Below, piece by piece: positions 30,990-31,860 of a stretch of DNA of 64,000 nt. Within the stretch, counting starts at the first letter, position 1. Every line of letters starts with the position of its first letter. The DNA lies in the IMG/VR virus record IMGVR_UViG_3300037721_000031, positions 128,001-192,000 of that record; one strand, given 5' to 3'. The position numbers were made by a program, and so were the translations under genes. The notes below the pieces were generated by a model that had not been told where the DNA came from, did no database searches, and saw nothing but the letters and a program-made list of their open reading frames with translations. Source of the DNA: a virus (lineage: Duplodnaviria; Caudoviricetes).

Positions 30990-31860
30990 TGTTTTTTGTA
31001 TCCACACTTTCTTGGCTGTGTGGATTTAATTTTGAGTGCTCAAGACTCACCTTCGAAGGGACAGGATATTAATCTTCAGTACTACCTTCATCGCAAGAAA
31101 GAAGTGCGCACTTCCTCTCACTAGTACTTGCATCGGGTCCTTAAATGGCGTTACCCCGAATGGTTATTTAATGGCCACTACTTTTCAATTAATTTAAGCG
31201 ATCCTGTCTACGGCTTCCAGCGACATCCGGGCATGTAAAGCTACTGGAATTTCATGTGCCACAACCGCAGACACTTAAGAGCCGCGTATCTCTTAAGTTG
31301 GATCACAGGTGGAGTCTCGATCTGGTTTATCATGTAACATCGGTAAGGCTCCCACATCACCAACATTAATACCTCAATGCCATTTGGTGTTAAAACTGAT
31401 CGTTAGCTCTCTGTTGGATTATTATCCGAGAGAGGTTCCTAGAGTTCTGTAAAATGCATCGAGTCAGGTAAAGACTCCACCTGTGATCCAATATCTATAA
31501 CAAGACGGTTCCGTGTACAATGTGTAGTCTAACTAATAAATAAAACCTACACTATCATACACTACTAGTTTTAGGTATCAGTTTCCTTCCGAATCCACCG
31601 TAAGTTTGGAAGGTTTTATTCGTTGTTTCAAGCACTTTACTCTACACCCACTCTACTCGACGATTTCCAAATTACATGGAAATGGTTAGGCCCTTTCGCG
31701 AGAGTCCGGTAAAATATAAAACTTGAAAAACGAAATTGAATGTTGTCTGAAGCTGCCTCGACAGTGAGACCCAAGAGCGTACGTTTACGCGTGTCCCTAG
31801 ACGGTGGAGATACTATCTCACTTTAACCGACTCTTATGCATATCTTCAGACAACAACCTT
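30990..31860 (-). ncRNA. Candidate large ornate structured ncRNA (~870 nt)
   Basis: No ORF >=60 aa; perfect 20-bp long-range helix 31298-31317/31472-31491; 12-bp helix 31741-31752/31844-31855; many local hairpins; downstream terminator. Confidence 0.6.

What the first reader, a model, noticed from the sequence alone, without database searches (positions are those of the whole stretch)
30990..31860. ~870-nt ORF-free, highly paired RNA candidate upstream of a strong terminator
Seen: no ORF in an otherwise gene-dense genome. A perfect 20-bp helix (31298-31317/31472-31491) encloses ~155 nt of sub-hairpins, and a 12-bp helix (31741-31752/31844-31855) closes a separate domain. Further pairs include TTCGTT-TTTCAAG/CTTGAAA-CAACGAA, ACAGGAT/ATCCTGT and CTTAAGAG/CTCTTAAG. 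A U-tailed terminator follows at 30948. Known: GOLLD and ROOL are ~600-800-nt ornate phage RNAs found near tRNA genes. Inference: a new or divergent giant ncRNA.
Basis: partly seen in the sequence, partly recalled or inferred. Interest (0 to 1): 0.8.

Follow-up and report, generated by a model that had tools for sequence, protein, structure and literature searches.

The report
Folded RNA modules ending phage tRNA cluster
The gene-free stretch is real non-coding RNA: a string of six or so separately folded RNA domains, matching no catalogued family, at the tail of the tRNA gene cluster of an uncultivated phiKZ-like giant phage. It looks more like an array of modules than one giant RNA, and its function is unknown.

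Summary
Observation confirmed. Window 30940-31863 has no credible ORF.

The RNA lies on the minus strand, the same strand as its neighbours. In the supported helices 97.7% of pair cells form on that strand against 88.8% on the other, with 50 G-U cells.

The host genome is a 266.5-kb phiKZ-like jumbo phage contig. Five or six related metagenome contigs carry the same region. They show heavy compensatory change:
- Module A: 8 of 36 pairs.
- Module B2: 8 of 23 pairs, including a pseudoknot.
- Module D2: 15 of 39 pairs.
- The long helix C stays perfect at 16-20 bp while its sequence differs.

No Rfam family matches, including GOLLD, ROOL, group I intron and YrlA.

All supported helices are local. 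The modules come and go independently in relatives. A tRNA gene or an ORF sits between them, B2 lies 2.5 kb away in one relative, and C plus D1 are absent in another.

I read it as an array of autonomous structured RNAs co-transcribed with the tRNAs, like T4 RNAC and RNAD. I do not think one giant RNA is proven. That reading stays open at about 0.25, because tRNAs also occur in GOLLD linkers and two loops switch between palindromes.

Function is unknown and no expression data exist. This scan has flagged other uncatalogued jumbo-phage tRNA-cluster RNAs on other DNA.

The parts
31741..31855 (-). Module A. A 12-bp closing helix P1 (31741-31752 / 31844-31855) encloses a multi-helix junction with long invariant single-stranded stretches.
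   Evidence: Alignment A1 of 6 sequences. My structure gives 95.6% paired cells and 8 of 36 pairs with compensatory change, against 35-42% paired in slid controls. Single copy in the genome. The Q-only MFE gives the same inner helices.
31619..31734 (-). Module B1. This domain is closed by the UUUCGUU..CAAG / CUUGAAA..CGAA helix and has a CGCG-containing apical loop.
   Evidence: Conserved in L017 and L020 at 84%. In L021, which is 97% identical to L020 elsewhere, the interior is replaced by a different sequence between the same closing arms. It therefore behaves as an exchangeable cassette. Absent from L015 and L019.
31506..31613 (-). Module B2. Two hairpins plus a pseudoknot, in which the loop CGGU of hairpin 1 pairs with ACCG 3' of hairpin 2. 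A U-G / G-U / A-U / U-G run (the last pair U-A in one of six sequences) lies in hairpin 2.
   Evidence: Alignment A4 of 6 sequences. 99.3% paired, 8 of 23 pairs compensatory, including 2 of the 4 pseudoknot pairs. Slid controls gave 27-49%. In L019 it lies 2.5 kb away, next to tRNA-Leu.
31298..31491 (-). Module C. A perfect 20-bp helix (31298-31317 / 31472-31491) carries a 154-nt structured insert in its loop.
   Evidence: At the same site L017/L018 have a perfect 16-bp hairpin with a 12-nt loop, and L015 a perfect 17-bp hairpin with a 13-nt loop. The base UGGRUCA / UGAYCCA is shared and the rest of the stem differs. Absent from L020 and L021. A 152-nt contig from run X9 covers the insert at 94% identity.
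31206..31298 (-). Module D1. Hairpin D1a (31273-31298) and domain D1b (31206-31272), which has an 8-bp outer helix and a 10-bp inner helix.
   Evidence: - D1a stem: CUUAAGAG in Q, CCUGAGGA in L017, CUUAGAA in L015, each compensated.
- D1a loop: holds palindrome CGCG or GAUC.
- D1b outer helix: GUCUG(CGG / UAG / AAG) pairs with (CCG / CUA / CUU)UAGAC.
- D1b inner helix: UUCCAG / CUGGAA in Q against UCUCAG / CUGAGA in L017.
- Absent from L020, L021 and L019.
31000..31162 (-). Module D2. Four local hairpins: 31131-31162, 31078-31128, 31033-31049 and 31000-31026. There are candidate pseudoknot and kissing contacts.
   Evidence: - Alignment A3 of 5 sequences: 98.4% paired and 15 of 39 pairs compensatory, against 32-48% in slid controls.
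- Candidate loop-loop pair CUUG/CAAG in Q against CCUG/CAGG in relatives.
- Candidate UGAAGG/CCUUCR pseudoknot; each of these two contacts has one compensatory change.
- The apical tetraloop is GCGC, GCGU or CCGG.
30930..30976 (-). Intrinsic terminator. A perfect 12-bp hairpin (30948-30976) is followed on the minus strand by a U-rich tail, then a T-run plus TATG just before the 195-aa gene.
   Evidence: (I5) and the sequence. The hairpin is present with different sequence in L017, L015, L020 and L019, with G-U pairs that are valid only on this strand. The T-run plus (G)TATG is conserved after it.
31864..32361 (-). Flank: 165-aa ORF (phrog_2586, unknown function) between tRNA-Ser(gct) at 32394-32485 and module A. 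It is an optional, recently exchanged cassette.
   Evidence: It is 98.4% identical in nucleotides to the L017 copy, while the adjacent module A is only 79% identical. It is missing from L015, where an HNH gene precedes A. One low-confidence contig joint (side 22) links 31857 to 32394.
30290..30877 (-). Flank: 195-aa ORF downstream of the terminator. I used it to fetch related loci.
   Evidence: It is 67-70% identical in nucleotides to relatives, with a strong third-codon-position bias in its substitutions.

Best explanation
Window 30940-31863 is the non-coding tail of the tRNA gene cluster of a phiKZ-like jumbo phage. It is read on the minus strand.

What it contains: at least six autonomous, tightly packed RNA domains (A, B1, B2, C, D1, D2), each 90-190 nt. 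They carry junctions, pseudoknots and conserved single-stranded nucleotides. A rho-independent terminator closes the region.

Shown:
- The domains are kept by selection on RNA structure on this strand.
- They are not coding.
- They belong to no catalogued family.
- They are separable units that relatives keep, lose, swap or move independently.

Inferred:
- They are transcribed with the upstream tRNAs, since no promoter of their own is evident. Module A begins a few nucleotides after the preceding gene.
- They then act as separate stable RNAs or as beads on one string, as T4 makes RNAC and RNAD from its tRNA region.
- Adjacent tRNAs would give RNase P and RNase Z cuts.
- The long perfect hairpin C would serve as a double-strand processing, 3'-end or stability element.

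My best guess for the molecular role is that each module is a specific binding platform (decoy or scaffold) for a host or phage protein or RNA involved in translation or RNA metabolism. That guess is speculative.
For: Genome identity:
- phiKZ-type major capsid protein (PF25620, E = 7e-194) on a 266.5-kb virus record.

Non-coding:
- No ORF longer than 56 aa and no family hits for the short ORFs.
- Substitutions between Q and L017 show no 3-base periodicity in the modules. The flanking ORF195 shows 51/37/106 by codon position.

Selection:
- Modules are 67-90% identical in nucleotides to relatives whose flanking gene is 67-70% identical.

Structure:
- A: 95.6% paired, 8 of 36 pairs compensatory.
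- D2: 98.4% paired, 15 of 39.
- B2: 99.3% paired, 8 of 23, including 2 of 4 pseudoknot pairs.
- Slid controls gave 27-49%.
- C is perfect at 20, 16 and 17 bp with different stem sequences.
- D1 helices are compensated.

Strand:
- 97.7% of cells pair on the minus strand against 88.8% on the plus strand, with 50 G-U cells.
- The terminator's U-tail reads on the minus strand.

Modularity:
- L015 has tRNA-Ser(tga) 4 nt after A, and a 70-aa ORF between D1 and D2.
- L020 has a 112-aa ORF between A and B1 and lacks C and D1.
- L021 has a swapped B1 interior.
- L019 has B2 2.5 kb upstream beside tRNA-Leu and lacks D2.
- An extra module X occurs in L015 and L020 and is absent here.
- All supported helices span 191 nt or less, and no inter-module stretch covaries convincingly.

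Precedent:
- T4 transcribes two small RNAs of unknown role, RNAC and RNAD, from its tRNA region (PMC3014915).
Against: - There are no transcription or processing data. No RNA run holds the stretch, so co-transcription, cleavage and stability are inference.
- Only five or six distinct sequences from one narrow clade support the covariation, so events are few and phylogenetically linked.
- In this phage and in L017 the modules are contiguous, with linkers of 0-14 nt except one of about 43 nt between D1 and D2, and no ORF over 780-920 nt. That arrangement equally fits one long RNA.
- tRNAs are known inside GOLLD linkers, so a tRNA between modules does not by itself prove independence.
- The 112-aa and 70-aa ORFs in relatives have no family support and may not be genes.
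- The order A-B-C-D is conserved wherever the modules co-occur.
- No binding partner is identified.
Confidence: 0.55

Rival explanations
1. One giant ornate RNA of about 0.8-0.9 kb, a new class working like GOLLD or ROOL. The modules would be domains of a single transcript that folds, and perhaps self-assembles through symmetric kissing loops. Its linkers would tolerate inserted tRNAs or ORFs.
For: - Modules are contiguous and ORF-free over ~920 nt here and ~780 nt in L017, with very short linkers.
- The order is conserved.
- The context is the same as for GOLLD and ROOL: a phage, beside a tRNA island, with tRNAs sometimes in the GOLLD linker.
- The apical tetraloop of D2b is GCGC, GCGU or CCGG. 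All three are self-complementary, and positions 1 and 4 change together.
- The D1a loop switches between the palindromes CGCG and GAUC. The cryo-EM paper used this pattern to support intermolecular bridges.
Against: - No long-range or inter-module helix has convincing covariation.
- B2 occurs kilobases away from A in L019.
- C plus D1, B1 or D2 can each be missing.
- There is no Rfam GOLLD or ROOL match.
- The palindrome evidence rests on one or two events.
Confidence: 0.25
2. Cis-acting transcript architecture only. The domains would be 3'-UTR and leader elements that stabilise, terminate or process the tRNA/mRNA transcripts, with no trans function.
For: - The genome holds 55 perfect hairpins of 14 bp or more, against 0-1 in shuffles. 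Many have a GCATAAA...TTTATGC base, so long perfect hairpins are a general punctuation style here.
- C in the relatives looks like one of these.
- D2 plus the terminator lie just upstream of the ORF195 promoter-like T-run/TATG in four lineages.
Against: - Junctions, a pseudoknot and 20-45 invariant unpaired nucleotides per module go far beyond what a stabiliser or terminator needs.
- Module A is not tied to one neighbour. It follows the 165-aa ORF, an HNH gene, or possibly a tRNA.
- B2 moves to another site.
Confidence: 0.12
3. Not an RNA gene: a decayed protein gene, or DNA-level repeats such as a mobile-element end, an origin or a recombination site.
For: - The 20-bp helix and its relatives have no G-U pairs, so they are equally complementary as DNA.
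- HNH endonuclease genes and cassette exchange surround the region.
Against: - Fifty G-U cells make the helices strand-specific.
- Compensatory change keeps the pairing.
- There is no codon periodicity and no protein-family hit.
- There is no second copy in the genome.
Confidence: 0.03

Closest known systems
GOLLD (RF01998) and ROOL (RF03087) RNAs
   Same: Phage-encoded, beside tRNA islands, several hundred nucleotides of elaborate covarying structure with pseudoknots, and unknown function. tRNAs are sometimes embedded in GOLLD linkers. Palindromic loops here hint at possible symmetric kissing.
   Different: No sequence or structure match, even at E <= 10. There is no conserved global architecture or long-range helix. 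The domains are lost, swapped and relocated independently. The host is a phiKZ-like jumbo phage from environmental metagenomes.
[quoted passage not shown]
   Same: Non-tRNA RNAs encoded within or at the end of a phage tRNA gene cluster, on the same strand. They are presumably matured from the cluster transcript, and their biological role is unknown (PMC3014915).
   Different: Here there are at least six modules rather than two, with junctions and pseudoknots. Processing and stability are untested. Homology to the T4 RNAs was not tested and is not expected.
Bacterial and phage Y RNAs (YrlA, RF02553) partnered with Ro60/Rsr
   Same: Small structured RNAs reported inside jumbo-phage tRNA arrays. 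This was a lead from earlier notes of this scan.
   Different: RF02553 matches only tRNA genes in this genome, below its cut-off. The phage has no TROVE/Ro60 gene.
RNase III-type processing hairpins and intrinsic terminators of phage polycistronic transcripts
   Same: Module C is a 16-20-bp uninterrupted duplex kept perfect by compensatory change. The 3' end is a classic hairpin plus U-tract.
   Different: C carries a 154-nt insert in its loop in this phage. No U-tract follows C. No phage RNase III gene is present. Cleavage is untested.

Membership tests
GOLLD RNA (Rfam RF01998) | Match to the family covariance model (conserved 3' domain) | tested here: not met
   No GOLLD hit at gathering score over the window, nor at E <= 10 over 30600-32400 with permissive filters.
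GOLLD RNA (Rfam RF01998) | Phage or prophage location near tRNA genes | tested here: met
   The jumbo-phage contig has seven to eight tRNA genes within 7 kb upstream on the same strand.
ROOL RNA (Rfam RF03087) | Match to the family covariance model | tested here: not met
   No hit.
Giant ornate RNA as a kind (a single large RNA with a global fold) | Long-range helices or pseudoknots tying the domains into one architecture, supported by covariation | tested here: not met
   All supported helices span 191 nt or less. The top covarying stretches are all intra-module. The only multi-covarying inter-module candidate conflicts with a well-supported D2 helix.
Giant ornate RNA as a kind (a single large RNA with a global fold) | Made as one transcript of full length | not testable with these tools
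   No RNA holder is listed. The only runs laid were contigs.
T4 RNAC/RNAD-type small RNAs of a phage tRNA region | Non-tRNA structured RNA encoded inside or at the end of the tRNA gene cluster, on the same strand | tested here: met
   Minus strand by G-U asymmetry. The region follows tRNA-Asn and tRNA-Ser. In L015 module A ends 4 nt before a tRNA-Ser gene.
T4 RNAC/RNAD-type small RNAs of a phage tRNA region | Excised from the cluster transcript and stably accumulated | not testable with these tools
   No expression data are available.
Y RNA / YrlA (RF02553) | Model match, and a Ro60/Rsr (TROVE) partner gene | tested here: not met
   RF02553 hits only tRNA loci, at 20.8 bits or less against a cut-off of 69. 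No PF05731 match in the genome.
Group I intron (RF00028) | Match to the catalytic core model | tested here: not met
   No hit in 30600-32400 at E <= 10. A weak sub-threshold hit lies elsewhere, at 35173-35694.
Rho-independent terminator | G+C-rich hairpin followed by a U-tract on the transcribed strand | tested here: met
   A 12-bp perfect hairpin at 30948-30976 with a U-rich tail on the minus strand. Hairpins at the same position in relatives have different sequence.

The most novel reading that the evidence does not exclude
The region is a new class of giant phage RNA. In this reading it is a roughly 0.8-0.9-kb chain of pseudoknotted domains that self-assembles through symmetric palindromic kissing loops (the GCGC/CCGG tetraloop of D2b and the CGCG/GAUC loop of D1a), as GOLLD, ROOL and OLE do. 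Its linkers would accept tRNAs and ORFs. This would be the first such RNA reported for nucleus-forming phiKZ-like phages.
Probability: 0.2. Interest if true: 0.8.

Novelty: new variant of a known kind. Interest (0 to 1): 0.6.

Why it matters
Large structured RNAs beside phage tRNA islands (GOLLD, ROOL) and the small RNAs of the T4 tRNA region (RNAC, RNAD) still have no known function.

This locus adds several uncatalogued, covariation-supported RNA folds, including a pseudoknotted ~110-nt motif, in a phiKZ-like jumbo phage lineage.

It also shows them behaving as exchangeable cassettes among tRNAs and homing-endonuclease genes. That mosaic supports the view that phage tRNA islands are general RNA-gene islands. 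It gives compact, well-defined modules (A, B2, D2) suitable for structure determination, partner pull-downs and processing assays.

If the palindromic loops mediate assembly, the locus would extend RNA-only multimers to a new phage group.

Tried and rejected
Homologue searches with no result:
- blastn of the region against 50,697 phage records: no match.
- blastn, and models R1 and R2, against five more distant IMG/VR relatives (capsid protein 43-53% identical) and the isolates FLC9, RP12 and FLC1-1B: nothing significant.
- Exact scan of viral contigs and metagenome contigs with the invariant 23-mer of module A: 0 hits.
- The search for related loci with both flanking proteins in viral contigs: none.
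- Further protein routes gave few or DNA-less contigs.

Expression:
- No RNA holder is listed.
- Run X9 is labelled RNA-Seq but is probably DNA, and it is contigs only.

Low-confidence contig evidence:
- The joint 31857 to 32394 (165-aa ORF absent) has a side of only 22 letters. I treat it as weak.
- The small shares of words in freshwater and wastewater runs are not used as evidence of habitat.

Leads tested and rejected:
- Y RNA with Ro60, taken from earlier notes.
- A phage-encoded RNase III.
- The weak PrrB/RsmZ-like hit at 30943-31080 (18.9 bits against a gathering score of 44). The GGA motifs sit in the terminator stem and are not conserved in relatives.
- RNAalifold's long-range rod for D2. 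I replaced it with local hairpins that carry more compensatory changes.
- The ACAGGAT/ATCCTGT pairing between D1 and D2: no compensatory change, and the partner is absent in L020.

Flanking proteins:
- Protein-atlas look-ups gave leads only. The 165-aa ORF resembles a single RecA/helicase-like domain, and the 195-aa ORF is DUF2303-like.

Technical:
- The first z-score scan timed out.

Full report
**Where we are.** The window is bases 128001-192000 of a 266,566-base virus record that is about 98% complete. It encodes a phiKZ-type major capsid protein (PF25620, E = 7e-194). The nearest isolate is Burkholderia phage FLC9, at only 53% capsid identity. It is therefore an uncultivated phiKZ-like jumbo phage. 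Nearly all genes around the finding lie on the minus strand. Seven to eight tRNA genes sit within about 7 kb upstream, on that strand.

**The observation.**
- Between the stop of a 165-aa ORF (31864-32361, minus) and the start of a 195-aa ORF (30290-30877, minus) no ORF exceeds 56 aa. The short ORFs match no Pfam or PHROG family.
- The perfect 20-bp helix, the perfect 12-bp helix, the CTTAAGAG hairpin and the terminator hairpin are at the stated coordinates.
- The region folds far better than shuffles: z = -8.0 on the minus strand and -6.7 on the plus strand.
- A scan of the whole window shows this is driven by bin 31201-31500 (z = -15), which holds the 20-bp helix. The window background is already z = -1.5 +/- 1.9.
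- Individual domains score only -0.6 to -3.6. Thermodynamics alone would not carry the claim.

**Relatives.**
- DNA searches found nothing.
- Logan contigs from four runs cover pieces of the stretch at 85-97% identity.
- Homologues of the 195-aa flank protein (59-83% identical) led to metagenome contigs that I could read: L015 (= L016), L017 (L018 is 98% identical), L019, L020 (= L022, L023) and L021 (97% to L020).
- These contigs are syntenic with 10 kb or more of the window.

**Anatomy.** BLAST and alignments split the region, read on the minus strand, into the following parts:

| Part | Window coordinates |
|---|---|
| A | 31741-31855 |
| B1 | 31619-31734 |
| B2 | 31506-31613 |
| C | 31298-31491 |
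| D1 | 31206-31298 |
| D2 | 31000-31162 |
| Terminator | 30948-30976 |

**Structure is conserved by compensation.**
- A: 95.6% of pair cells are standard and 8 of 36 pairs have changes on both sides. Slid controls gave 35-42%.
- D2, as four local hairpins: 98.4% paired and 15 of 39 pairs compensatory.
- B2: 99.3% paired and 8 of 23 compensatory. This includes two of the four pairs of a pseudoknot between the loop of hairpin 1 (CGGU) and the tail after hairpin 2 (ACCG). It also has a U-G / G-U / A-U / U-G run whose last pair is U-A in one of the six sequences.
- D1: its helices change as CGG/CCG, UAG/CUA and AAG/CUU, and as UUCCAG/CUGGAA against UCUCAG/CUGAGA.
The base UGGRUCA/UGAYCCA is shared and the upper stems are unrelated.
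- The 154-nt interior is an insert seen only in this lineage. A 152-nt contig from another run also has it at 94% identity.

**Strand and coding.**
- Across A, B2 and D2, 97.7% of cells pair on the minus strand against 88.8% on the plus strand, because 50 cells are G-U.
- The terminator's U-tail is also on the minus strand. The RNA is therefore co-oriented with its neighbours, contrary to another first-stage note on this stretch.
- Substitutions between Q and L017 show no codon periodicity in the modules. The 195-aa ORF shows 51/37/106 by codon position.
- Module nucleotide identity (67-90%) equals or exceeds that of the coding flank (67-70%).

**One RNA or several?** The evidence for separate units:
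- Every supported helix is local, spanning 191 nt or less.
- A search for covarying antiparallel stretches across A, B2 and D2 ranks the known intra-module helices first. No inter-module candidate is credible.
- Relatives mix the modules:
  - L015 places tRNA-Ser(tga) 4 nt after A, lacks B1, and has a 70-aa ORF between D1 and D2.
  - L020 has a 112-aa ORF and an extra module X between A and B1, and lacks C and D1.
  - L021 has a different interior in B1 between the same closing arms.
  - L019 has B2 2.5 kb upstream beside tRNA-Leu, and lacks D2.
- The 165-aa ORF that separates tRNA-Ser from A is itself a recently exchanged cassette. It is 98.4% identical to the L017 copy, beside a module A that is only 79% identical.

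This is the behaviour of autonomous cassettes in a recombining tRNA island with HNH endonuclease genes.

The evidence on the other side:
- Here and in L017 the modules are contiguous, with 0-14-nt linkers apart from one of about 43 nt between D1 and D2.
- Their order is conserved.
- tRNAs are known in GOLLD linkers.
- Two apical loops switch between self-complementary sequences: GCGC, GCGU and CCGG in one, and CGCG against GAUC in the other. The cryo-EM study took this pattern as support for intermolecular bridges.

I therefore rate the modular reading at about 0.55 and the single giant RNA at about 0.25.

**Comparison with known families.**
- Rfam 15 gives no hit in the region at gathering score, or at E <= 10. 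It is not GOLLD, ROOL, a group I intron, 6S, tmRNA or a riboswitch.
- The Y-RNA lead from earlier notes fails. YrlA matches only tRNAs, below threshold, and there is no TROVE gene.
- Models of A and D2 find one copy in this genome. They find none in more distant phiKZ-like phages. The families are narrow, or too diverged to detect.
- The closest functional analogue is the pair of small RNAs, RNAC and RNAD, that T4 transcribes from its tRNA region. Their roles are still unknown (PMC3014915).

**Helix C in context.**
- The genome contains 55 perfect hairpins of 14 bp or more, against 0-1 in shuffles. Most have 3-6-nt loops, and many have a GCATAAA...TTTATGC base.
- Long flawless hairpins are thus a general punctuation feature of this phage. 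They probably combine terminator or 3'-end elements with promoters.
- C in the relatives looks like one of them. This makes the perfect 20-bp helix less exceptional.
- It suggests that C marks a processing, 3'-end or stability point inside the array.
- The phage has no RNase III gene, so a host enzyme would have to act.

**Verdict.** These are genuine, novel, structurally elaborate phage RNAs at a tRNA island. The data favour an array of separable modules over one giant RNA. The function is unknown and no expression data exist.

Noticed in passing
whole genome G000; in the window e.g. 3124-3165, 26186-26223, 27334-27376, 40672-40719, 50058-50095: There are 55 perfect hairpins with stems of 14-20 bp, against 0-1 in shuffled genomes. 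Most have 3-6-nt loops, and many share a GCATAAA...TTTATGC stem base. They may be combined terminator and promoter punctuation of this phiKZ-like phage.
   Followed up: partly
window 31864-32361 (minus) against L017:2913-3410: The 165-aa ORF (phrog_2586) is 98.4% identical in nucleotides between two phages whose adjacent RNA module is only 79% identical. The ORF is absent from L015. This looks like a recently exchanged mobile cassette next to tRNA-Ser. An atlas look-up suggests a single RecA/helicase-like domain, which is a lead only.
   Followed up: partly
window 35173-35694 (minus): A weak, sub-threshold Rfam group I intron match (22.8 bits against a gathering score of 50, E = 0.016) lies inside another large non-coding stretch of the tRNA island. 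That stretch is 90% conserved in L020.
   Followed up: no
L015:4964-5098, L020:4970-5150, probably L019:3240-3400: A further conserved non-coding module (X, containing AGTTCTCGGTAGC) is shared by relatives. It is absent from this phage and from L017.
   Followed up: no
window 36929-37004 (minus): Rfam's tRNA model finds a tRNA here (51.4 bits) that ARAGORN does not list.
   Followed up: no
window 30877-30947 and the same position in L015, L017, L020 and L019: After the terminator hairpin, every lineage keeps a run of 7-10 T followed by (G)TATG shortly before the 195-aa gene. This is a candidate phage promoter motif.
   Followed up: no
window 32582-33244 (minus): The longest reading of the HNH endonuclease ORF overlaps both tRNA-Arg(tct) genes at 33115-33191 and 33218-33294. 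Its true start is probably further downstream.
   Followed up: no
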